This document shows positions 18,601 through 50,835 of a stretch of 64,000 nucleotides of DNA, one piece after another. The notes under the pieces are model-generated. The model did not search any database. It had not been told where the DNA came from and was given only the letters and a program-made list of their open reading frames with translations. Each line of letters opens with the position of its first letter. The stretch's first letter is position 1. Both the position numbers and the translations under genes were made by a program. The stretch is from NCBI GenBank assembly GCA_035525285.1, contig DATLFB010000044.1, positions 20,293-84,292 of the forward strand. Direction: 5' to 3'. This stretch comes from Thermoanaerobaculia bacterium. GTDB lineage: Bacteria > Acidobacteriota > Thermoanaerobaculia > Gp7-AA8.

Positions 18601-21600
18601 GATAGTTCTTCACGTCGGCGCCGGTGAGCGCCGCGTTCGTCTGCAGACGCGCACCTTGTGCAGCCGGCGCGGCGGAGCTGGTGAACCTGCCGCCTTCGAC
18701 GCGCAGTGTGTCGACGATCATCAGGCGCGGGCCGCGCATCGATTGCCCGAGAAGCGCGAGCAGGTAGGGCCTCACCGGATCGGTGCCGGGCGGAGCGGGG
18801 ATGTCGAGCTGCAAGCGCTGCTTCGCAACGCCAGTAAAGTCGAGTTGCACGCCGGCGGACCAGTTCAGCTCCGTATCCAGACGCGGCACGGCGGCAAGTA
18901 CGCCCTTGGTGGAAAGATGCACGTCGATGCGCGCCGCCTCGTCGAACGCGCCGGCTGGAACCGTGACCACCATTCCGTCGCCGCTGCTGAACGTCGTTGT
19001 CCTGTTCGCCGGCGCGAGGAAGCCTTTCCCGTCCGCGGTGACGAATGGCGTGAGCTCAATGATTGCGACGATCGCTCTCGATACTGGGTCGAGGACCTGC
19101 AGATCGATCGCATCGCTCGTGAAGATGCGATCCCTCGGGTCGAGATGACCGGCGTCGAACGAGAACGAGCCATCGCTGCTCACGGTCGCGCTGTACGACA
19201 CGATGAAGAAGCGGCCGCGACGAACAGCGAGGGCTTGCGCACCGTTCGGGAGGGCGCCTGGTTTGCCACTGATGATCGATTTTCCGCTCTCATCGGGAAT
19301 CGTGATGCGGACCAGTTCCGGATGGATGGCCGTGTTGCCAGGCGGAATGGCGCGCGTCGAGAACTGCGTGGTGACGGTTCTCCCGAACGGCGTGCCGGTG
19401 GTGGTGCGGATCGTCGGGGCGACGGTGATGGAGTAGCGCGACGCGGCGCGCAGCGGCTCGTTGGCCATGAAGCGGACGGTACTCGAGCCGTTGAGGGTGA
19501 TCGTGCCGGCGAGCGCGGTATTCGTCGTAAGGTTTGTGACTCGCAAGCCATTGACTAGCGACGCGGCGTCGATGGCGGCGTTGAAGGTTGCCTGGACGAC
19601 CAGAGGCTGGGTGACATCGACATCGGCATTGTCGGCGGGTGTGAGGCCGGTGAGCTGTGGCGCCTGCGCGGCGAGCGTCAACGCGCCGAAGTTGATGAAG
19701 GTGTCGGGGTCGGGACTCGTCGCGTGCACGGCGGCGGCGCCGTCGCCGGTTGCGAGCGAACGCGCGACGAGCGAGAAGGGCGTCGCGGGTTTCGCGGCGA
19801 CGGGAACGACGAACACGCCGTCGAGGCGGGTGAGATCGCGTACGCCGAGGGGCGAGGTCATCGGGGAGCCGATGCCGGAGGTGACGCGCGCGTTCGCGAT
19901 CGCGGCGGCGCCGGTCTTCACCTGGCCGTAGGCGGAGGCGATCGGGTTGTCGGCGACGAGGACGAGATAGCGGCCGTCGCGCACGATGCCGTCGAGGGGG
20001 AGCTGTGTCGAGACGATGGGGCGCGATACGAAGACGTTCGCGACGGACGGAGATGTCAGTGCGACGAGGCGGAAGAGGATGCCGTGTTGAGTGCTGCTCA
20101 GGATTTCCGCGATCACGATCTGGGGGATTGAGGATTGAGGATTGAGGATTGAGGAAGGGATCGAGACCGTGGCTTTTGCGGGGGCGAACAGCGACGGCGG
20201 GGCGATCTCGACGCCTTCGATGGGCGTGGGCTGGTTCGCGCGCGTGAGCGTGAATGTGAAACCGGCGGCGATGCGGAAGCCGGGGATCGCGCCGAGGGCG
20301 GCGAGGTCCGCGTCGGACATCGAGGAGACCGAGGCGTGCAGCGGCTCGGCGGTCGCGCCGGCGGGGACGTCGAGGAGCACGCTCCCGTCACCGGGAACGC
20401 GTCCGCCTTCGGCGCCGAGGAGCGTGCCGCGGTCGATGCGGCCGGGGTAGTCGACGATGCGGATGTGATCGACGCCGTCGCGCAGGATCACCGACTGCGC
20501 CTGCAGCGTCGGCGAGAGGTGGAAGTCGGCGATGCCGTCGGTGCCGGCGAGATTGCGGTAGATGAGGAGATCGGTTGCGAACGGCGGATCGACGAGGACG
20601 CGGCCGTCGGCGAGATTGAGTTGCTCGTCGATGAACGCCTGCACCGCGGTGCCGCTCGGATACGGCTTCGTGCCGTCGGTGGTCAGCGTCGCGACCGTGC
20701 GGCCGCTCGGAAGCACGGCCTTCGGATCGAGGACGAAGCTCTTGCCGGTGAGGCGGCAGACGTCGGGTGTGGTGACGCACGGATTCGCGATGCCGGTGAG
20801 CGAAGCGCCGGCGCGCGCGACGAGCGTCGAGCCTTTGTCGGCATACACGAGCGCGTAGTTGCCGGTCTCGCTGATGTCGACGACGACACGGCCGTCGCTT
20901 CCGACATTGACGATCGGAACGAGGACGCGCCATTCATCCGCTTCGCTGTCGTACTGCACGAGCGCGAGCGTCTGCGCGGCGGCGGTGACTGCGCTCGCGT
21001 CGATGTGGAAGGTGAGCTTCGCGCCGGGGATCGCTTCGCTCGTTCCGCTCACTTCGGCGGATGCGAGCGGCGACCAGCCGAGGGGGAGGAGGCCGGCGAG
21101 CGACTGGCCGCCGATGGACGTGACGCGAACATCGGCGGTGGATGCGAGCGTGAGCTCGACAGGCTTCGTGATCTTCGTGTCGCCGCCGTGCGTCAGCGCG
21201 GTGCCGCGCCTGGTGAGGCGGATGTCGATCGGCACGACGCCCGCGCCGGCGGGGACGACAACCTGGCGCCAGACGGTGGTGTAGCCGGGCGCGCTCGCTT
21301 CGATCGTGTAGGCGCCTTCGGGGAGGGCGAGGGTGTATCGACCCTTCGGGTTCGAATTGAGGATTGAGGATTGAGGATTGAGGAAGACTCTGGCGCCGGC
21401 GAGCGGGCGGCCGTTCGTCGCGTCGTAGACCGCGCCGGAGACGTAGCCCTTGCCGCGCTCGAGCGCGGGATCGTCGCTGAATTGAAACGTCTGCGTGTAG
21501 TCGGCGACCATCGACGCGCCGCCGGCGTCTTTCACGCTCTTCTTCACGGTGAGGGCGAGGTGCTTTGCGGGAACGCTAGCGAGAGTGATCGTCGCGGTGT

Positions 21601-24600
21601 CGCCGGTTGCATTGAGCGCGACCGTGCCGGTGAGCGCGCTCTCCCCTTCCGGCACGAGGACGATCGTGCCATCGGACGCGGCGACGAGCGTCGTGAGATC
21701 CATCGGCTTCGAGAACTGGATCGTCACCGTCTTCGCGGTGCGGTCGAGCGAGGCGGCGAGGACGTTCGGCACGGTGCAGTTGATGCGGAAGCAGAGCGCG
21801 CGCTCGGCGGAGAGGCTGCCGTCGGCGCCGACTTCGGCGACGCGCACGATGTGGTAGCCGGTCTGACCGGAGAACGCGAAGGTGGCCTTGAACGCGCCGG
21901 TGCCGGCGTCGGAGAGGACGCGCATCTTCACGCCGTCGACTTCGATCTGCACCTGCGCGCCCGGAATGGAGACGCGTCCGGTGAGCGTAGTGCCGCTGAA
22001 GCAGCCGGTGGTGTTCGTGTCGTCGACGATCGGCGCGTTCGCCGGCGCGCTGCCGCCGGTGGTGAAGGCGAAGGAATGCGCAGCGGCGAGCGAGCTGCCG
22101 GCGACGTCCTTCAGCGACGATCCGAGAGTGATCGTGTAGCGCACGCCGCTGCGCAGCGGCTGCGCGGGGGCGAAGGAGATCGCGTCGCGCTCGACGAAGA
22201 GCGCGCAGTCGACGGTCGCACCATCGGCGTCGGTCATGCGAAATGCGCTGGCCGCGGTCGAGCGGTCGAGGGGATGGTTGAAGAGGACGACGATCGCGGC
22301 GCCGCGGTCGATGCTCGTGGCGTCGTTCGCGGGGAAGCTCTCGCGCACGGCGAGGGCGTCGGTGAATCGGACGACGCGCACGGAGTCGCTCGCGTTGCGC
22401 GCGTCGGGAGCGGTCGCGCGCGCGATCAGCTGCGAGATCGCGGCGGACGAAAGCTCGACGTCGGCGGCAAAGGTGGAGCCGGTGATCGTCGCCACCACTC
22501 CGTTCACGGAGACGGTCGTGCCGGCGTCGCCGGTGAACGTGCCGGTGACGCGGAGCGTGGTGCTCTGCGTCGATGGGAAGTACGTGTTGTCGCGCGGCGC
22601 GTCGATCGAGACGGACGGGCCGCCCGCGATGTGTGTGACATCGACGGTCGACGACGCCTGCGCGCCCGCGCCGTTGCGGCCGGTGGCTTCGATCACGTTC
22701 ACCTGCGCCGCGGCGAGCGGCACGGTGGCGGTGAAGGTGCCCGTCGTGTCGGAGTGCTGCGTGCTGAGTGCTGCGTACTGCGTGGTGCCGAGTTTCACGG
22801 TGATCGTGGATGGGTCGATATCCGTGTAGGTGCCGCTGACGTCGATCGACGTTGCGCCGGTGTCCGTGCTGGCGAGCGGCGACGTGATCGCGATCTGAGG
22901 CGTGGAGTTGAGGGCGTGGACGCGCGTGGTGGCGACGCCGATGCGCGACGACTTCGTCTTCGCGCGCGCGGTGATGACGTTCAGTCCCGTTCGGATGGGG
23001 ACATTCGGAACGCTGAACGTGTGCGTCTCGGCGCCGTCATCGGGGACAGTGAAGAAGATGCCGTTCACGTCGCCCGAGACGACGCCCGCACCGACGGTGC
23101 CGGTGACGGTGATGCTCGTCGCGGTGACGGTACTGCCCGCGGCGGGCGAGGCGATCGCGATCGTGGGATCGATGTAGCGATAGAGGATGAGCTTCGACGC
23201 GGGATCGTCGGTCGGCTGTCCCGCCGCGTCGGTGCAGCGGATCGTCACTTCGTTGCGGCCCGGCACGAGCGTGGCGTCGCCGCAGAACGAGCCGTCGGCG
23301 ACGGAGGCCGCGGAGTCGTTGATCTGCACACCGATCGCGCCGCCGGAGCGGCCGGCGATGCGCACGGTCTCGGTGAAGACGGCGGCGCCGTCGATGGGAT
23401 CGAACGCGGAGAGCGCGCAGCCGCCGAACGAGCCGGCCGTGCCGATGAAGAAGACGCGGTCGACGCGGGTCTCGTTGCCCGCGGCATCGCGCGCGATGGC
23501 GGTGAGCGCATGGCCGCCGTCGAGGAGCGTCGTGACGCCGGGCGAGACGAGCTCGCCGTCGATGGTCAGCTTCGTCGTGAGTCCGGCAGGGTTCTCGTCG
23601 GTCGCGTCGAGGGTGATGCTCGGCGAAGTCGCGAAGCGCGCGCCGTCGCCGAGGTCCGCGCTGTTGGCGAGAACCTTCAGGACGGGCGGCGTGAAGTCGG
23701 CGGTGACGGTGACGGAGATGCTGTTCACTTCGCCGCTGCTCGCGTTGACCGACGCGGTGATCGTGTTCGGACCTTCGCTGAGCGCGAAGCCGTTCACGCG
23801 GAACATGCCCGCGGGATCGAGCGAGACCTGCGTACTATTAATGGTTACGCTGCGCGCGTTCGCCGGCGTGAGCACCTGGCCCGCGACGAGCGTGGTCGGA
23901 CGGTTCGTGAGCAGCTTGTCGGGCGGCGCGGCGAGGAGGATGCCGATCTTCCCAGTGTCGCGCGTGACGTCGACCGCATCGCTCGCGCCGTTGCCCGCCG
24001 CATCGACGGCGACGGCGATGAGCGTATTCGGGCCGAGCTCGAGCGGAACCGTCGCGGTGAACGCGCCGTTCGCAATCGCGGCGGCGATCGTGTTGACGGC
24101 GACGCTGCTCGCGTTCGTCGTGCCGCGCACTTCGACGCTTTCGGCGTTGATGACCGCGTCCTGCGCCGGCGACGCTATGTCCACCGCCGGACCGGTGCGA
24201 TCGATCGTGAAGCTCACCGTCGCGGTCGCGGACTCGTGGCCGAAGCTGTCGCGCGCCTTCGCGGTGATCGTGTAGTCGCCGTCGCTCGTGATCTCCGTGC
24301 CGGAGGTGAACGGCGCGTTGTTGAGCGTCGCGGTGATCGTCGCCTTCGCGTCGTCGGAACGAATGATCGGCGTGACCGCGCGGCGGTAGACGTGATTCGC
24401 GGGGAGCGGCAAGCCGTTCTCGACGATCTCGACACTCGGAGCCGTCGTGTGAATCGTGACGGTGTAGACGAAGCGCGACGAGTTGCCGGCTGCGTCGACG
24501 ATCACCAGCACGAACGTGTTCAGCCCTTCCTGCAGCGGCGCGGCGAGCGTGAAGGCGACGCCGCTGACCTGCGCGGCGGCGCCCGTCGCCTCGAGCACGA

Positions 24601-27600
24601 CCGCGGCCGGCTCGCTCAACGTTCCGGTGATCGATGAGGGCTTCTCCCCCACCGTTGCGCCGTTGGCCGGATTGATCGAGGTGATGGCGGGCACGGTGCG
24701 GTCGACGATGAACTGCACGACCTTCTCGTCGGAGACGAGACCCGCGCAGTCCTTCGCCGTCGCGCGAAGCACGTGCGGCGCCGGCGTCTCGCTCGCGATG
24801 ACGGTGCCCGGCGTGTACGGCTGCCCGTCGAGCGTCACCGTGAGCGTCGCATTCGTTTCGTTCGTCGCGCGCACATCGAGCGAGACCGGCCGGTTGATCG
24901 CGGAGGCCGTGAACGGCACGCCGCTCTCGGTCACGGCGATGACCGGCTTCGTGCGATCGACGACGACGGCGATCGCCGCGACGGCGGTGTGGCCGCTCGC
25001 ATCGATGGCCTCGACGCGGATGGTGAACTTTCCTTCGACGGGCGCGGGAATCGTCGCGGTGAACGACCGCCGGTCGGCGGCGATTGTCGCATCGACGGAC
25101 GTCGTTCCCATCGTGACCTTCACCTTCGACAGCGCCGCATCGGACGCGCGTCCGCTGACGGCGATCTCGGTCACGTTGAGGCAGGCGTTCTGCGCGGGTG
25201 CGGTGACGCTGAGCTCCGGCGCGCGCGTGTCGAGCGTGACGGGAATGGCGGTCGTGGTGTTGTTGCCCGCGCGGTCGATGCCGAGGGCGACGATCGTGTT
25301 CTCGCCCTCGAGGAGCTCGATCGCGACCGGCGTGGCGAACTTCTTGTCCGTGATCGTCGCCTCGATGCCGTTGACCTCGACGCTCACCGCGTCGTCGGCT
25401 TCGCCGGTCACGATCACGCGCGCCGTCGTGATCGTGGAGCCGCCGATCGGATGGGTGAACGCGATCGCCGGCGGGGTCTTGTCGATGGTGAAGGTGACCG
25501 GCGGAACGTCGGTCGAGAGTCCGACCTTGTCCGTGACTCTCACCTTCAATGTGTACACGCCCTCGGCCGTCACCGGCGTGCCAAGCTCGTACGGCTGGAC
25601 CGTTCCGTCAGCAAGTGTCAGCGTCGCGGTCGTCGTCGTCTCGGTGGTGTCTTTGACAATCGCGCGCGGCGTGACGTCGCGGTTGAACCACTGGCCGTCG
25701 GTGAGCTCGCTGTCGCCTTCCATCAGCGTGACCACGGGCGCGGTTTTGTCGATGAAGAAGACGATCGCCGGAATGGTCGTCGACCATTCGAGCTCGTCGA
25801 CGACGGTCGCGGTGAGGGAGTACTTCGCCTCTTCGCTCAGCTCCGTGCCGAACGTGTACGGCTGCTCGTTGAGCAGCGCGGTGGTCGTGGTGTTCGTGAT
25901 GTCGGCGATCGTGATCTCCGGCTTCACGTTCCTGTTGAACGCGCTGCCGGTCACGAGCGGCTGCCCGCCCTCGGTCACCGCAACGACCGGCGCGGTCTTG
26001 TCGATCGTGAAGCTGATCGGCGGCACGACGGTCACCCAGTTCAACTCGTCGGTGACCGTGACCTTCAGCGTGTAGTGATCTTCCGAGGAGATCTCCTGGC
26101 CGGAGCTCCAGGGCTTGTCGTTCAGCGTGGCGCTGGTGATCGTTTCGGTCAGATCCTGAATGCGCACGACCGGCGTGAGCGAGCGCTTGAACTTGCCGCC
26201 GGCGAACGGCTCATCGGACTCGAGCACCGCGACGATCGGCGCGGTCTTGTCGACGAGGATCGTGAGCGTCGACTCGGCGGTGTTCCCCGCTTCGTCGACC
26301 GCCTTGACCACGATCGTGTGCTCGTTCTCGTTCGCGATCAGCGTGCCGGCGGTGTAGGACGCAACGTTACTTCCAGTAAGGATGGTCGCGGTGTACGTCG
26401 CGGTGGAGACCGCGTCGGTGACCTTGATGTCGATGGCGACGTCGCGCTGGAACTTCTGCAGCTCGCGCGGATCGAGCTTCGTCGTGCCGTCGTAGAACGA
26501 GATGACGGGCGCGGTGAAGTCGACGAGGATCGTGGCCTGCACGACGCTCTTGTTGCCGACGGTGTCGATCGCCTCGACGACGAGGTAGTGCGTCCCCTGC
26601 TCGGTGATGACGAGGTCGGACTTGCCGTCCATCGTCGCGGTGATCTTCTCGACCTTCGTCCAGGTGTCGGCGGCCTTGATGTCGATCGCCGGAATGCGCC
26701 GGAACGTCGAGAACGGCAGCGGCAGCGGCGTGCCGGACTCGGTGAGCGTGATGACCGGCGGTGACTTGTCGACGAGCACCTGAACGCTGCTCTCGCTCGT
26801 GTTGCCGACGTTGTCTTTCGCGATCGCGTGAATCGTGTGCGGGCCTTCGGCCGCGATCGGGGCGAGCGGCGTGTACGGCTGGCCGCCGGCGGTCGCGGTG
26901 AGGCTGGCGAGGCCGGAGAGGTCGTCTGTCGCGCGGATGTCGACGCGCGCGTCGTGATCGATGGGCGTGATCGTGCCCGGCTGCAGTTGCACGCCGCCTT
27001 CGAAGAATGCGATGACGGGCGGGGTGTGATCGACGGGAGACTTCGCGAAGAGATCGTCGACGTACGCGTCGCCCTTCACCGCGGACCAGATGCCGATGCG
27101 GCCTTCCTTCAAACGAGTGGCCGATGCGTCGGTCGCGTCGATGGTGAAGGTCTTCGGCTCTTCGGTTCCGTCGAGCCAGAAGCGCGCGCGGATGTTCGTC
27201 GCGCCGTCGACGTCATCGACCTGAACGAGGAAGCGGTACCACTTGTTGATCTCGGGCGTGAATTCGCTGTCGGTGTCTTTCGCGATCGTTCCCGCGCCGA
27301 AGCCGAAGAGCTGCATGGTGAGCTTCGTCGTGGCGGGCTGCGTCCAGAGTCCGACGAGGTAGTACGAGTCTTTCTCCGGGTACGAGGAGTGGAAGGTGAA
27401 GCCGATGCGCGTGTCGGCGCTCGTGCGGATGAAGCGGCCGCGATACTCGAAGCGGCCGAAGCTCCTGAAGCTCTTCGTGGTCAGCGTGGAAAACGTGCCG
27501 ATGCGCGGGTTGTTGCCCTCCGGTTTGCCGGACGACTGCTTCGTGCCGTAGACGATGTTCGAGCCCTGGTTGCCCTGCAGCGGATCGGGCCACGTCTTGT

Positions 27601-27775
27601 ACAAACCGTTCGCGATCGGCGTCGACTTGCCGATGGAGTTGTCGACCCAGCCCGCGGGATTGCGCGGCGAGCCGTAGCTCTGGAAGTCATCGTTGTACGT
27701 GACCTCCGCCTGCTGCGCGAAGGCTCCCGCGCAGAGCAGCAGAGTGAGCGAAAGAGCGATGCCGATGCGAGTCAA
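9655..27775 (-). CDS. giant RHS/YD-repeat polymorphic toxin (~6,039 aa if the 1-nt break at 10600 is bridged)
   Basis: The TTG start at 27775 overlaps the TGA of the upstream giant gene (TTGA) and follows AAAGGAA. The product has a signal peptide (TRIGIALSLTLLLCAGAFAQQ), a LamG-like jelly-roll and many Ig-like repeats beginning D[KR]T[AP]P[VA]. It also has SbsA-Ig-like and CarboxypepD_reg-like domains, LVIVD-like blades and a YD-repeat shell. The core end reads YVRERWYQPLSGSWLSPDPKGYVDSSNLYSFAGSNPVDRRDPTG and is followed by the toxin tip. Confidence 0.85.
9658..10464 (-). other. RHS C-terminal toxin tip (~269 aa after DPTG), family unknown
   Basis: It begins right after NPVDRRDPTG. The first ~150 aa are charged and helical. 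The last ~110 aa read GGRLGDAITKQTTANVVRDLQARGFNRIRTEVLF..RYADVVAWNDVTGDIMIVNIGK and are mixed alpha/beta. Confidence 0.6.
10465..15330 (-). other. RHS/YD-repeat shell region of the giant toxin (approximate)
   Basis: YD-type repeats run from about TYRSRTIGLTAFGGGWDSS (~15325) to the DPTG motif, for example FDELGRVSTEADEFYNPL and IRYIYGADGRLAKKIDPVGRETTFTWN. Confidence 0.8.
10598..10600 (-). other. single-base frame break in the RHS gene at an A3 run, exactly before the conserved core-end motif
   Basis: The upstream frame reads ..HAHPYAEPLTGL-K and then about 180 junk codons, ending at the stop at 10052. The toxin frame opens at 10599 with NYVRERWYQPLSG, immediately after its own TGA at 10600..10602. 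Skipping nt 10600 restores TGL-NYVRERWY. Confidence 0.7.
20126..20155. repeat. heptanucleotide tandem repeat (GATTGAG)x4 inside the RHS ORF, site 1
   Basis: Four perfect 7-nt units at 20126..20153 plus a partial unit. It is translated as SSILNPQSSI and is AT-rich in a GC-rich gene. Confidence 0.9.
21355..21382. repeat. heptanucleotide tandem repeat (one AATTGAG + three GATTGAG) inside the RHS ORF, site 2
   Basis: Same unit and orientation as site 1, 1229 nt away. It is translated as LNPQSSILNS. Confidence 0.9.
23500..27030 (-). other. array of >12 Ig-like repeats in the RHS protein (approximate)
   Basis: Repeat starts recur: VDHTPPVIAF, DKSPPVITL, DFTAPVISF, DKTAPIVAV, DKTAPVVAV, DKTAPVVTL, DKTPPAIAF, DTRAPELSV, DRTKPVIAV, DRTVPAITS, DRTGPAVDI. 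Confidence 0.6.
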
Positions 27776-30700
27776 TGGAGTTCCTTTTTGCTGAGCGCCT
27801 CGAGGAGCGCGTCCTGCGACCAGATCTGGACCTCGTTGAGGAAGAGCACCCAGGTGTTGGAGATCTGGACGCGCACGTACCGGCCCGGCCGGTCGATGAC
27901 GAACGGATGCGACGACCGCGGCGGTGAGCCGTAGAAGTACGTCGACACTCCCGGCTGGCTGATGGTCGCGGCCGGATCCGACGACGCGAACGGCCCGTCG
28001 GAGACGAACACGTAGAAGTTCGTGATCTCGTCGCCTGGAGCGACCGGGTTCGGGTCGGTGCTGAAGCGCATGAACACGTCGACGGCCGAGATCGGGAGGA
28101 CGGATCCGAGATCGACGTCCCACCAGGCGTTCGCTTCCAGGTTCGTGTGCGTCGTCGATCCGAGTGAGCCGTAACTGCCGGAGAGGTCGCCGTTGACGGC
28201 GTGTTCCGCGCGAGCGAGCGAGGGGTTGCTGCTCTGCGTACTGGACTGCCTCGCGCTCGTCCGGCCGATCGCGAGATTGACGCGCTTCGCGGACGCCGGT
28301 GCCCACACCTCGACTTCACCGAGCTGCAGCTCCGCGGTTCCGTTGCGATAGAGACGCACGTAGCGGCCGGTGCGGTCGACGCGAAGGCTCATCGGCCGCG
28401 ATGCGGTGCCGATGATCGCGAGACGGGCAACGCCGCTCTGCACTTCGATGCCGGCGCGCGTCGACGCGAACGGCGTGTCGGACACGTAGACGGTGAAGTC
28501 AGACGGCGCACAGCAGTTCGGACGCGGCCAGATCTGGATGTCTTCGATCGATTGCACGGCGCCGAGGTCGACCTGCCACCACGGCTCGGACTCGAAGTTC
28601 GTCGTGCACCAGTTGTCGTTCACGCCGCTGGTATCGCCATCGACGACGCGCGACGCGCCATAGGTGATGCCGTTGTTCGTGACGGTCGAGGACTGGGACG
28701 CGACCTTGCCACGCGCGAGATTGACGCGCGGCATTCTGCCGGCGCGATCGAACCACGCACGCCCGCCGTACGTCGCCAGGGCCATGCCGTCCATCGCGAT
28801 CCCTTCGGCGTTGATCAGCCCCGCCGGGATCTCCAGCCGCACCCACCGCCCCGCCTCGGGCATCACACCGATGCGCGAGGTCTGCGGAATGGTCGCGCCG
28901 GGCAGGATGAGCTTCTCGCCCCAGAAGGCGCCGCGCATCACGTCGCCGCCCTTCGCGAACGTGATGAGGATCTGCCGCGGCGGATTGCACGGATCGAGGA
29001 GGACCCACACGTAGAGGGCGTCGCCGGCAGCGACGTTCAGTTTCTCCGTCGCGCCGCTGAAGCTGTGCTGCTTCCAGCCGGCCTCGAGCAACTCGGTGTG
29101 CGACTTCGTCCCGCTCGCGGCCTGGGTCGTATCCCACAGCCACGGGCGCGCGTTGCCGCCGGACGAGGCCACGGCGCCGGCCGGCAATGCGTCGTCGAAC
29201 CAGACTTCTTCGTCGGAGCGATGCGACGGCGCGGCTGCCGTCGGGAGCACGCAGGACGCGAGACCAACGGCGTCGATCCACGCCTCGCCGCCGTAGACCT
29301 GCACCTCCATCGAGGTGAAGTTCTTCGCAGACGTCAGACCGAGAATCGAGGCGGGAACCTCGAGCCTCACCCACTCTCCGCCGCGCGGCATGGGACCGAT
29401 CCGGACCGGCTTGCCTCTCGGATCGATGAGGCTCTCGCCCCACATCGCATCGAGCGAGGTCGTGCCGTCGCTGAGCGTGATCCAGAGCTCGCGCGCCGGA
29501 TTGCATGGATTCACGAGAACGTGGACGACGAGCTTGTCGTCCGGCGTGACGGCGAGCGGCGCCGCGCCGGTGACGCTCCACGAGCGCGCGCCGCTGGCGG
29601 CGTCGAAGTGGAGGGCCTGCGTTCCGCTCGCGGCCTGCGTGGCATCGAAGGCGGCGCTGCCCGCGGGTGTGCCGCCGCTCGGCGGAGCGTCGTCGAGCCA
29701 GAGCGGCGACGGGACCGTTGCCGGCCTCGCGGCAGTCCCGAGCGTCGTGCACGCGGTGAGGTTCAGGGCGGCGGAGCGCGTCGCGCCGTAGGTTGCGCTG
29801 ATCGACGCAGACGTCGTGGCGGCGACTCTCTTCGTGCCGACGGTGAACGTCTCCGTCGTCACGCCTTCAGGGATGACGATGCTCGACGGGACCGACGCAA
29901 CGGACGAGTAGGAGCTCGCGAGCAGGACGGTCGCGCCGCCCGCGGGCGCGGGTCCGCCGAGGGTGACGGTGCCGTTGAGGCTCGTGCCGCCTTCGACCGT
30001 CGACGCATCGAGCGTGACGGAGGCCAGCGCACCGGCGGACCCGGCGATGTCGAGCGTTGCGGACTTCGACCGCTGATACGTCGCGGTGATCGTCGCCGCG
30101 GCATTCGCGCTCGATGCGAGCGTGGTAATCGCGAACTGCGCGGACGACTCGCCTGCGCTGATGATCACCGCGGATGAAACCGTCGCGGAAGGATGCGAGC
30201 TCGCGAGCGCGACGCTGATTCCGTTGCTCCGCGCGGGCTGCAGCAGCCGCACGGTTCCGATCGTCGACGCGCCCGCGGCGACGGAGGAAGGCTCGATGGC
30301 GATCGAGGCGAGCTGGTTCGCGTCGACGATCGAGCCATTGACGGCGATCGTGGCCGACAGCGGAGTCGCGTGCGAGTCGGTCGCCTGGATCGTGAACGTA
30401 TCGCCGCCCTGCCCGACGACCGGAATGCGGAATGAGCCGTCAGGCAAAGCCGTGCCGTTGAACATCTGGCCCGTGCGCGCGCTGGTCACCCTGAGGTCGA
30501 TCGGCGTATCGGGATCGGTGACCGCGCCCGCGGGGCCGGCGACGAAGTCGCCGCTCGCGTCGGTGCCGGCGGTGATCTGCGCCGCGAGCGGGAACTGCGG
30601 CGCACTCGTGTTGGGATTGACCGGAATCGCATCCTTGATCACGAGGAGACCCTGTTCGTTGGCGACGTAGAGCACGCCGTTGCGGAGCAGGACGTCCCAC

Positions 30701-50477: not shown

Positions 50478-50835
50478 TGCTCCACGAGCACATTCATTGT
50501 CCTCCAGAGGAGACTCATTTGCTCCGGGAGCACAATCACGTGCTCCACGAGCACAATCACGTGCTCCGCGAGCACGATCACGTGCTCCGCGAGTCCAATC
50601 ACATGCTCCGGGAGCACGATCACATGCTCCGCGAGCAGGATCACATGCTCCGCGAGCACAATCACATGCTCTGGGAGCACAATCACATGCTCCGCGAGCA
50701 CAATCACATGCTCCGCGAGCACGATCACTTGCTCCGGGAGCACAATCACATGCTCCGGGAGCACAATTACATGCTCCGAGAGCACATTCTTACGCTCGGG
50801 GAGCACATTCACATGCTCTGTGACACTGCTATTCG
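50478..50835. repeat. 21-bp tandem repeat array (consensus GCTCCGSGAGCACRATCACRT); 14 well-conserved units at 50521..50814 plus ~3 degenerate flanking units
   Basis: Units were counted directly from the sequence. Each unit contains a GCTC-N3-GAGC palindrome. A 21-nt period equals 7 codons, so three frames stay open. Confidence 0.95.

What the first reader, a model, noticed from the sequence alone, without database searches (positions are those of the whole stretch)
20126..21382. Two copies of an AT-rich heptanucleotide tandem repeat (GATTGAG)4 inside the giant RHS ORF
The same 7-nt unit is repeated four times at 20126..20153 and again at 21355..21382 (first unit AATTGAG). Both copies have the same orientation and sit in an otherwise GC-rich gene. 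Because 7 is not a multiple of 3, gain or loss of one unit by slipped-strand mispairing would shift the frame, as in a classic contingency locus. The two sites are 1229 nt apart. Recombination between them one unit out of register removes 1236 nt, an in-frame loss of 412 codons. That segment runs from a CarboxypepD_reg-like domain to ..KATVSIPSS. The sites could therefore act as an on/off switch or as a module-excision switch.
Basis: seen in the sequence. Interest (0 to 1): 0.65.

Follow-up and report, generated by a model that had tools for sequence, protein, structure and literature searches.

The report
Coding heptamer microsatellites in RHS gene
Two short 7-base tandem repeats inside a giant bacterial toxin/adhesin gene are real and translated, belong to a repeat family scattered about 70 times through the same genome, and sit at two loop positions where related bacteria also carry such repeats, so they are probably mutational hot spots, not a proven genetic switch.

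Summary
An identical 31-nt stretch, ATTGAGG x4 plus AAG, lies at 20127-20157 and 21356-21386, 1229 nt apart. The gene is on the minus strand, so the sense unit is CTCAATC. Both tracts are translated, in different frames, as the cyclic peptide LNPQSSI.

The motif is not private to this gene. Tract words in the source soil metagenome reach about 70 times the genome's depth. In related Thermoanaerobaculia MAGs, (GGATTGA)n mostly forms the two arms of intergenic hairpins.

Only the stop-free orientation occurs inside the gene. All three period-7 arrays of the 64-kb window lie within 2.7 kb of this gene. Orthologues at 45-71% identity carry heptamer arrays (CTCAATC, CTCAATT, GCACTCA) or octamer arrays (CCTCAACW) at exactly the same two loop positions. 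The arrays are therefore long-lived and probably renewed by slippage or conversion.

The on/off reading is arithmetically sound and fits this comparative pattern, but it is untested: each tract has only about 4 units, every orthologous array is in frame, and only k=31 contigs were available. The module-excision reading is unlikely, because in-register deletion is out of frame and one end cuts through a folded domain.

Verdict: a new member of the known dispersed-heptamer-SSR and coding-SSR kinds.

The parts
20125..20157 (-). Heptamer tract, site 1. Sense strand (CCTCAAT)4.4, translated as SSILNPQSSIP. It is modelled as part of a 15-residue surface loop between two beta-strands.
   Evidence: model (residues 468-478 of the 530-aa segment, no secondary structure, pLDDT 65-84). 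Orthologous arrays at the same position in L162, L122, L152 and L139.
21355..21386 (-). Heptamer tract, site 2. Sense strand (CCTCAAT)4.1 with the 3'-most unit CTCAATT, translated as FLNPQSSILNS. It encodes the end of strand B, a turn (NPQ) and strand C (SSIL) of the CarboxypepD_reg domain.
   Evidence: model (strands 56-60 and 64-67, pLDDT about 80). Orthologous tracts with the same boundaries in L127 and L162, also in L152; octamer arrays at this position in L135/136/140/141/143/147. Present in related strains in runs X2, X5 and X7.
22752..22788 (-). Degenerate heptamer array, site 3. (GTGCTGC)5 on the + strand at 82% matches, translated as TQYAALSTQHS.
   Evidence: The homologous position in L076 carries a perfect (GGATTGA)5 encoding NPQSSILNPQS.
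21212..21442 (-). CarboxypepD_reg domain that contains site 2.
   Evidence: Pfam PF13620, E = 9e-14, residues 489-565 of the segment starting at 22906.
10052..27775 (-). Giant secreted Ig-like/RHS gene that hosts the tracts. TTG start at 27775, signal peptide, Glucodextran_B x8, Big_13, Big_5, CarboxypepD_reg, then RHS repeats. The assembled ORF stays open to 10052, but the coding frame changes near 10600.

Best explanation
The two tracts are coding copies of a lineage-wide dispersed heptanucleotide microsatellite, (GGATTGA)n / (TCAATCC)n. In the window's organism, a soil bacterium whose closest homologues are Thermoanaerobaculia (Acidobacteriota), the tract occurs at roughly 70 genome-equivalents. 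In related MAGs it usually forms both arms of intergenic hairpins next to gene ends. The GATTGAG strand has TGA in all three frames. The CTCAATC strand is open in all three frames and always encodes the cyclic peptide LNPQSSI. Only the open orientation is found inside the gene, where it is translated into a beta-turn and strand of a CarboxypepD_reg domain (site 2) and a surface loop (site 1). Both positions vary greatly in length across the protein family, and orthologues carry heptamer or octamer arrays built on the same CTCAA core at exactly these positions. The arrays are therefore old and are kept near-perfect by slippage or conversion (unit turnover), not by single insertions. Each tract acts as a local mutational hot spot. 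A change of 3 units alters the loop by 7 residues in frame. A change of 1 or 2 units shifts the frame and truncates the protein about 2130 or 2540 residues into a protein of about 6000 residues, upstream of the RHS shell and toxin tip. Shown: the tracts exist, are translated, belong to a dispersed family, recur at orthologous positions, and share a unit variant within each genome. Inferred: slippage is ongoing and has the stated consequences. Not shown: any adaptive switching.
For: Tracts and translation. Dispersal: more than 120 loci carry (GATTGAG)3 or longer, including 16 loci from 8 Thermoanaerobaculia MAGs. Tracts range from 3 to 16 units, and about 82% are not inside long ORFs. Hairpin architecture: with L024 folding at -75 kcal/mol, z = -12.7. 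In the source sample the tract words have a summed depth of about 21,100 against about 290 for the genome, and other tract contigs sit at depths 279 and 287. Clustering: all 3 period-7 arrays of the window lie within 2.7 kb. In 47 full homologous loci, 12 of 13 period-7/8 arrays fall in the 1.6-kb segment between the sites, p = 6e-7. Orthologous arrays share position, frame and boundaries (L076; L122). The closest tract-lacking relatives (L124/L125, 71% identity) have unrelated GC-rich sequence there. GC3 of the tract codons is 0.43 against about 0.9 for the gene, so the tracts are not at compositional equilibrium and must be young or renewed. At site 1 the window is exactly 7 aa (3 units) longer than P0003, P0004 and P0013. 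Within one genome the separate tracts share a unit variant: the window and L152 have CTCAATC, L162 and L122 have CTCAATT. Precedents: PMC4679880, PMC4692102, PMC2651432, PMC2670836.
Against: No unit-number polymorphism was seen at either site, although the available data could not have shown it. The tracts are short, at about 4 units, whereas documented phase-variable heptamers have 13-38 units (PMC2651432). Nearly all in-gene arrays, in the window and in the orthologues, are about 4 units long, with one of 5, which is odd for freely slipping repeats and could mean a length constraint or a different generating process. At site 2 the tract replaces a segment of about equal length and does not add 21 nt, so simple expansion from one unit does not explain every case. 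Whether the arrays at orthologous sites are inherited or repeatedly gained is not resolved. The taxon of the window rests only on the names of homologues.
Confidence: 0.55

Rival explanations
1. Adaptive contingency locus. The tracts are maintained because gain or loss of one unit reversibly switches off the C-terminal RHS shell and toxin, or the whole protein, in part of the population.
For: A non-triplet perfect SSR lies inside a secreted toxin/adhesin gene. Near-perfect arrays persist at the same positions across diverged orthologues despite strong GC3 pressure. A mid-ORF heptanucleotide SSR with an associated frameshift is known in hmw1a, and 3 or more units was the survey threshold for heptamers (PMC2651432).
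Against: Each tract has only about 4 units. The tracts lie mid-gene, not near the 5' end. All 10 heptamer and 6 site-2 octamer arrays in orthologues are in frame. No OFF allele or length variant was seen. The motif is a genome-wide element that is mostly intergenic, so its presence here needs no gene-specific selection.
Confidence: 0.25
2. Genome-wide templated or conversion process. The in-gene tracts are written or refreshed from the genome's pool of hairpin elements, by ectopic gene conversion, break repair that copies a tract, or an unknown templated synthesis. This would explain why different sites in one genome share a unit variant and why tracts replace segments of similar length.
For: Unit variants agree between sites within each of 4 genomes but differ between genomes. 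Replacement is length-neutral at site 2 and in L076. The genome holds about 70 copies.
Against: Four concordant genomes are weak statistics (about p = 0.06 under a coin-flip model). No enzyme candidate is present in the window. Shared ancestry plus slippage could give the same pattern. The unit usage of the donor pool in the other genomes was not measured.
Confidence: 0.12
3. Module-excision switch. Recombination between the two direct tracts deletes the 1.2-kb segment in frame.
For: Direct repeats with 31 nt of identity flank 1.2 kb. A register shifted by +1 unit gives 1236 nt, which is 412 codons. Orthologues L122 and L162 also carry pairs of direct tracts.
Against: The in-register product (1229 nt) is out of frame, and in-frame registers have only 24 or 17 nt of identity. 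The spacings in L122 (547) and L162 (1213) are also not multiples of 3. Site 2 lies inside a folded CarboxypepD_reg domain. The deleted segment includes the most conserved block of the family, with the DYPGRIDRG motif. No deletion joint was listed. No recombinase gene is nearby. Caveat: the k=31 contigs and a search seeded inside the segment could not have detected deletion alleles.
Confidence: 0.03
4. Assembly artefact: a chimeric join through a multi-copy repeat.
For: The tract is multi-copy, and Logan contigs break at both tracts.
Against: The reading frame, the domain and the gene order are continuous across both tracts and collinear with orthologues that span each site. X1 contigs cover each flank into the tract with no mismatches. 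Orthologues from independent assemblies have tracts at the same places.
Confidence: 0.01

Closest known systems
Dispersed heptamer repeat families: cyanobacterial STRR, GGGNATC of Xanthomonas/Nostoc (PMC4692102), TAACTGA of Beggiatoaceae/Cyanobacteria/Bacteroidetes (PMC4679880)
   Same: One 7-nt unit repeated in tandem at many loci of a genome. The loci are mostly intergenic and close to ORF ends, and the unit number varies between loci, with four units preferred in the GGGNATC family. STRR can form hairpins (PMC2670836). In TAACTGA one orientation has stops in all three frames, so only the reverse orientation, encoding a 7-aa cyclic peptide, is found inside ORFs. The same logic applies here.
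   Different: The unit (GGATTGA) and the lineage (Thermoanaerobaculia, Acidobacteriota and others) are different. No G-quadruplex is predicted for this unit. In-ORF copies here are not at protein termini but in the middle of a roughly 6000-aa protein, inside folded domains, and they recur at orthologous positions. The paired-arm hairpin is the dominant intergenic form.
SSR contingency loci, in particular the heptanucleotide SSRs of H. influenzae hmw1A/hmw2A (PMC2651432, PMC8262952)
   Same: A non-triplet SSR in or next to a very large surface protein gene. One strain has (AATTTTG)14 lying 3.5 kb inside the 7.3-kb hmw1a ORF, with a frameshift. Slipped-strand mispairing is the mechanism.
   Different: Those tracts have 13-38 units and show documented length variation. 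The tracts here have about 4 units and no observed variation. The unit here is a genome-wide element, not a gene-specific one.
REP/REPIN-type intergenic palindromic repeats (PMC3733652)
   Same: High-copy intergenic hairpin elements near gene ends.
   Different: The arms here are tandem microsatellites with variable unit number, not a fixed 20-40 nt palindrome with a GTAG or CGTC tag. No RAYT-like transposase was seen.

Membership tests
SSR contingency (phase-variable) locus | Perfect tandem repeat whose unit length is not a multiple of 3, inside an ORF or promoter | tested here: met
   two perfect 7-nt arrays, both translated.
SSR contingency (phase-variable) locus | Tract long enough for frequent slippage | tested here: inconclusive
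   4.1-4.4 units. This is above the survey threshold of 3 or more units for heptamers, but far below the 13-38 units of proven cases (PMC2651432).
SSR contingency (phase-variable) locus | Unit number varies at the same locus between strains or within a population | not testable with these tools
   Only Logan k=31 contigs were available, and they break at the tracts. Orthologous arrays are all about 4 units and in frame.
SSR contingency (phase-variable) locus | Reversible ON/OFF expression of the product | not testable with these tools
   This needs a culture or expression data.
Dispersed heptamer repeat family (STRR / GGGNATC / TAACTGA type) | The same heptamer in tandem at many loci of one genome | tested here: met
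   Summed tract depth of about 21,100 against about 290 for the genome, with other tract contigs at the genome's depth. Several loci per MAG, for example 4 each in SMAG_U3271 and U3390.
Dispersed heptamer repeat family (STRR / GGGNATC / TAACTGA type) | Mostly non-coding and close to ORF ends | tested here: met
   111 of 135 tracts are not inside long spanning ORFs. In Thermoanaerobaculia loci they sit right after stop codons or before starts.
Dispersed heptamer repeat family (STRR / GGGNATC / TAACTGA type) | Unit number differs between loci | tested here: met
   3.0-16.3 units.
Dispersed heptamer repeat family (STRR / GGGNATC / TAACTGA type) | Only the stop-free orientation occurs inside ORFs | tested here: met
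   GATTGAG gives TGA in every frame, and CTCAATC gives none (and direct reading). All in-gene arrays in the window, L076, L122, L127, L152 and L162 are in the CTCAAT-sense orientation.
Direct-repeat module-excision switch | The favoured (in-register) recombination product keeps the reading frame | tested here: not met
   1229 mod 3 = 2. In L122, 547 mod 3 = 1. In L162, 1213 mod 3 = 1.
Direct-repeat module-excision switch | The repeats lie at domain boundaries | tested here: not met
   Site 2 is inside the CarboxypepD_reg domain, between strands B and C.
Direct-repeat module-excision switch | A deletion variant exists | tested here: inconclusive
   No joint was listed, but contigs cannot span the tract, and the orthologue search was seeded inside the segment.
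RHS/YD polymorphic toxin (host gene) | RHS repeats, a core-end motif, a variable C-terminal tip and a downstream small ORF | tested here: met
   PF05593. The motif RWYQPLSGSWLSPDP..NPVDRRDPTG, a 314-aa tip and a 181-aa ORF follow. The motif and tip are in the +1 frame relative to the shell.

The most novel reading that the evidence does not exclude
Each genome of this lineage has its own heptamer unit, which a genome-wide homogenising process writes both into intergenic hairpins and into a few tolerant loops of giant surface/toxin proteins. The process could be ectopic conversion or a templated synthesis. Because a 7-nt unit without stops encodes the same peptide in every frame, and one unit shifts the frame by one, such tracts would act as frame-agnostic adaptors. 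They would generate loop hypervariation and could allow in-frame recombination between any two tracts.
Probability: 0.1. Interest if true: 0.8.

Novelty: new member of a known kind. Interest (0 to 1): 0.45.

Why it matters
Heptamer repeats are known to be over-represented in many bacteria but remain poorly understood (PMC4692102). This case extends the phenomenon to uncultured soil Acidobacteriota. It shows a clear intergenic form, the repeat-armed hairpin. It also gives a natural example in which the same element sits inside folded domains of a giant RHS protein at positions shared by diverged orthologues. That makes two questions testable with ordinary read data: whether 4-unit heptamers slip at a measurable rate, and whether the in-gene copies are homogenised with the genome-wide pool. 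For annotation it is a warning as well. These tracts break short-read assemblies, and many homologues are partial proteins from contigs of about 2 kb. Any length error in a tract would mimic a frameshift in an 18-kb gene.

Tried and rejected
- **Domain duplication:** rejected as the source of the two copies, because the flanks are only 26-32% identical.
- **Assembly chimera:** rejected, because the gene is collinear with orthologues across both sites.
- **G-quadruplex:** this would be analogous to GGGNATC, but none is predicted for (GGATTGA)4, whereas the Xanthomonas-type control does form one.
- **Known RNA family:** Rfam finds nothing in the window.
- **Literature on the unit:** whole-word searches for all 14 rotations found nothing relevant.
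- **Mobile-element footprint, target-site duplication or DGR:** no transposase, reverse transcriptase or recombinase is present among the neighbouring genes, which are sensor kinases, a patatin and a PRMT-like protein.
- **Population polymorphism:** the public runs are held only as k=31 contigs. These end inside the tracts and cannot count units or detect the deletion junction.
- **First metagenome scan:** the attempt with alignment A1 failed for lack of a conserved block. It worked with the trimmed alignment A2.
- **Window's genome in the genome scan:** it was not identified.

Full report
**1. Observation**

Both tracts are present as described. TRF reports (GGATTGA)4.4 at 20125-20155 and (ATTGAGG)4.1 at 21356-21384, both perfect (sequence read). 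The identical stretch is 31 nt, at 20127-20157 and 21356-21386, with a start-to-start spacing of 1229.

The flanks are unrelated (26-32% identity). The motif occurs nowhere else in the 64-kb window (6 matches, all at these sites, against 0.34 expected). A scan for period-7 arrays finds only three in the window against 0.1 expected. The third is a degenerate (GTGCTGC)5 at 22752-22788, and all three lie within 2.7 kb.

**2. Host gene and translation**

The host ORF (10052..28306) is on the minus strand, so the sense unit is CTCAATC.

- GC3 of about 0.9 in frame 0 runs through both tracts, so both are coding.
- The likely start is a TTG at 27775, preceded by AAGGAA and overlapping the TGA stop of a second giant gene.
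- The protein has a signal peptide, many Ig-like domains (Glucodextran_B x8, Big_13, Big_5), one CarboxypepD_reg domain, and RHS repeats in the C-terminal half.
- The tracts are read in different frames, as VFLNPQSSILNSN (site 2) and IPSSILNPQSSIPQ (site 1).
- A 7-nt unit gives the same cyclic heptapeptide in all three frames. CTCAATC has no stop codon in any frame, whereas GATTGAG has TGA in all three (and direct reading).
- An AlphaFold model of the 530-aa segment (mean pLDDT 72.5) places the site 2 residues at the end of strand B, a turn, and strand C of the CarboxypepD_reg sandwich (pLDDT about 80). It places the site 1 residues in a 15-residue loop.

**3. The motif is a dispersed family**

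- 16 loci come from 8 Thermoanaerobaculia MAGs, up to 4 loci per MAG. About 31 come from Acidobacteriota as a whole, and many from Gallionellaceae and other Betaproteobacteria.
- Tracts range from 3 to 16 units.
- 111 of 135 tracts are not inside long ORFs.
- In Thermoanaerobaculia the standard form is an intergenic hairpin: (GGATTGA)3-6, a loop of 20-50 nt, then (TCAATCC)3-5, often directly after a stop codon. L024 folds at -75 kcal/mol, z = -12.7.
- Other heptamers form similar hairpins (L108, L072). The window itself has an analogous octamer-armed hairpin at 62693-62872 (-150.8 kcal/mol, z = -11).

In the source soil metagenome (X1) the window's genome sits at about 275-297x. The tract words sum to about 21,100x, and other tract-bearing contigs have depths of 279 and 287. 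This corresponds to roughly 70 copies per genome-equivalent. The same excess is seen in four other soil runs.

**4. Orthologues**

Protein homologues are mostly Thermoanaerobaculia, at 42-66% identity. A metagenome scan added 59 loci with DNA, at 41-72% identity.

- *Site 2.* The window (FLNPQSSILNS), L162 (ILNSQLSILNS) and L127 (ILNSQFPILNS) carry a tract with identical boundaries and frame, and L152 also has one. Another clade has octamer arrays of the CCTCAACW type there. The loop ranges from about 6 to about 70 aa across the family.
- *Site 1.* The window, L162, L152 and L122 carry CTCAAT(C/T) tracts, and L139 carries a GCACTCA array.
- *Site 3.* L076, a 40%-identical homologue, has a perfect (GGATTGA)5 at the position where the window has its degenerate third array.
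- *Localisation.* In 47 full loci, 12 of 13 period-7/8 arrays fall in the 1.6-kb segment bounded by the two sites, p = 6e-7.
- *Relatives without tracts.* The closest such relatives (L124/L125, 71% identity) have unrelated GC-rich sequence at both sites.
- *Unit variants.* Within a genome the separate tracts share a unit variant: CTCAATC in the window and L152, CTCAATT in L162 and L122.
- *Frame.* All arrays are in frame.
- *Composition.* The tract codons have GC3 of 0.43 in a gene with GC3 of about 0.9.
- *Close strains.* Site 2 is conserved in strains from X2, X5 and X7. About 170 nt around site 1 are too diverged to align, and one X2 contig shows non-tract sequence there.

**5. Interpretation**

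The best reading (confidence 0.55) is that these are long-lived coding copies of the lineage's dispersed heptamer microsatellite. They are tolerated only in the stop-free orientation and only at a few loop positions, and slippage or conversion keeps them near-perfect.

The mechanistic consequences follow from arithmetic. A change of 3 units gives a 7-residue change in the loop; site 1 is exactly 7 aa longer than three orthologues. A change of 1 or 2 units gives a frameshift and truncation upstream of the RHS part.

Whether this is used as a switch is open (0.25). The persistence of non-triplet arrays supports it, and a mid-ORF heptamer SSR in hmw1a is a precedent (PMC2651432). Against it, the tracts have only about 4 units, all orthologous arrays are ON, and no length variant could be observed.

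Module excision is unlikely (0.03). The in-register product is out of frame here and in L122 and L162. One end cuts through a folded domain. The deleted segment is the best-conserved part of the family. No recombinase gene is nearby.

**6. Comparison with known systems**

The closest known systems are the dispersed heptamer families:

- STRR, 7-bp repeats able to form hairpins (PMC2670836).
- GGGNATC, genome-wide, mostly non-coding, with four units preferred (PMC4692102).
- TAACTGA, where the forward orientation has stops in all frames and the reverse encodes LSVISYQ inside some ORFs (PMC4679880).

This case passes every defining feature of that kind that I could test. It differs in unit and lineage, in lacking G4 potential, and in having in-ORF copies inside folded domains at orthologous positions. 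It is a new member of a known kind. Membership of the phase-variable class remains untested on its decisive feature, length variation at the locus.

Noticed in passing
window 62693-62872: An intergenic hairpin whose arms are tandem octamers: (TTGCCCGG/TTGCCCAG)x9, a 14-nt loop, then (CCGGGTAA/CCGGGAAA)x11. It lies between the stop of a hybrid sensor kinase gene and the next gene. It folds at -150.8 kcal/mol with z = -11. It has the same architecture as the heptamer-armed hairpins of related MAGs.
   Followed up: partly
window ~10590-10610 (minus strand, CTGAAATTAC): Apparent 1-nt insertion in the giant RHS gene. The RHS core-end motif (RWYQPLSGSWLSPDP...NLYSFAGSNPVDRRDPTG) and a 314-aa C-terminal tip (10599->9658, no Pfam hit) are in the +1 frame. 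The assembled ORF runs on out of frame to 10052. An independent X1 contig at 255x agrees with the window, so this is either a real frameshift (pseudogene) or a recoding site.
   Followed up: partly
window 9109-9654 (-) and 8893-9046: A 181-aa ORF starts immediately after the toxin tip and is a candidate immunity gene (no Pfam hit). Downstream, 8893-9046 repeats 10932-11088 at 95.5% identity over 157 nt. This is the kind of homology that precedes orphan RHS tip cassettes.
   Followed up: partly
window 9044-9092: A perfect tandem duplication of a 25-nt unit (CGGAAGTTCTTTTTGAGCAGGACAG x2) at the edge of the 157-nt repeat.
   Followed up: no
window 50520-50818: A 21-nt unit repeated 14.2 times at 86% matches. 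It is open in all three + frames, and one frame reads as His-rich heptads (HNHMLRE). It lies in a stretch with no clear GC3-supported ORF, between 49060 and 50898.
   Followed up: no
window 27772-48195 (-): A second giant gene (6807 aa; CarboxypepD_reg, Big_5, LVIVD, discoidin domains). Its TGA stop overlaps the TTG start of the RHS gene (TTGA), which suggests translational coupling. It contains no period-7 or period-8 arrays.
   Followed up: partly
window ~19400 downstream to ~10800 (minus strand): GC3 of the giant gene drops from about 0.9 to about 0.8 from roughly 19400 onwards, so the RHS half has a different composition from the Ig-like half.
   Followed up: no
L014, L041, L049, L109, L079, L006, L090; L002, L021, L047, L100, L108: In many unrelated genomes the GATTGAG-strand tract ends within a few nucleotides of an ATG, so the repeat supplies GAGG/AGGA Shine-Dalgarno-like motifs at 7-nt spacing. 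In five Thermoanaerobaculia hairpins the left arm ends in GGATGA. This recalls the TAACTGA repeats that lie upstream of start codons.
   Followed up: partly
L121 1370-1412 (P0012), L108 5130-5320, L072 3190-3300: Other heptamer units behave the same way. There is a G-rich period-7 array (GGGGAGA-like) inside the site 2 insertion of P0012. (GGGCCGA)n and (GAGGTTC)n form hairpin arms in Thermoanaerobaculia MAGs.
   Followed up: partly
P0001-P0016: Most database homologues of this gene are partial proteins from contigs of 1.5-2.6 kb. Short-read assemblies of this gene family fragment heavily, possibly at such repeats.
   Followed up: no
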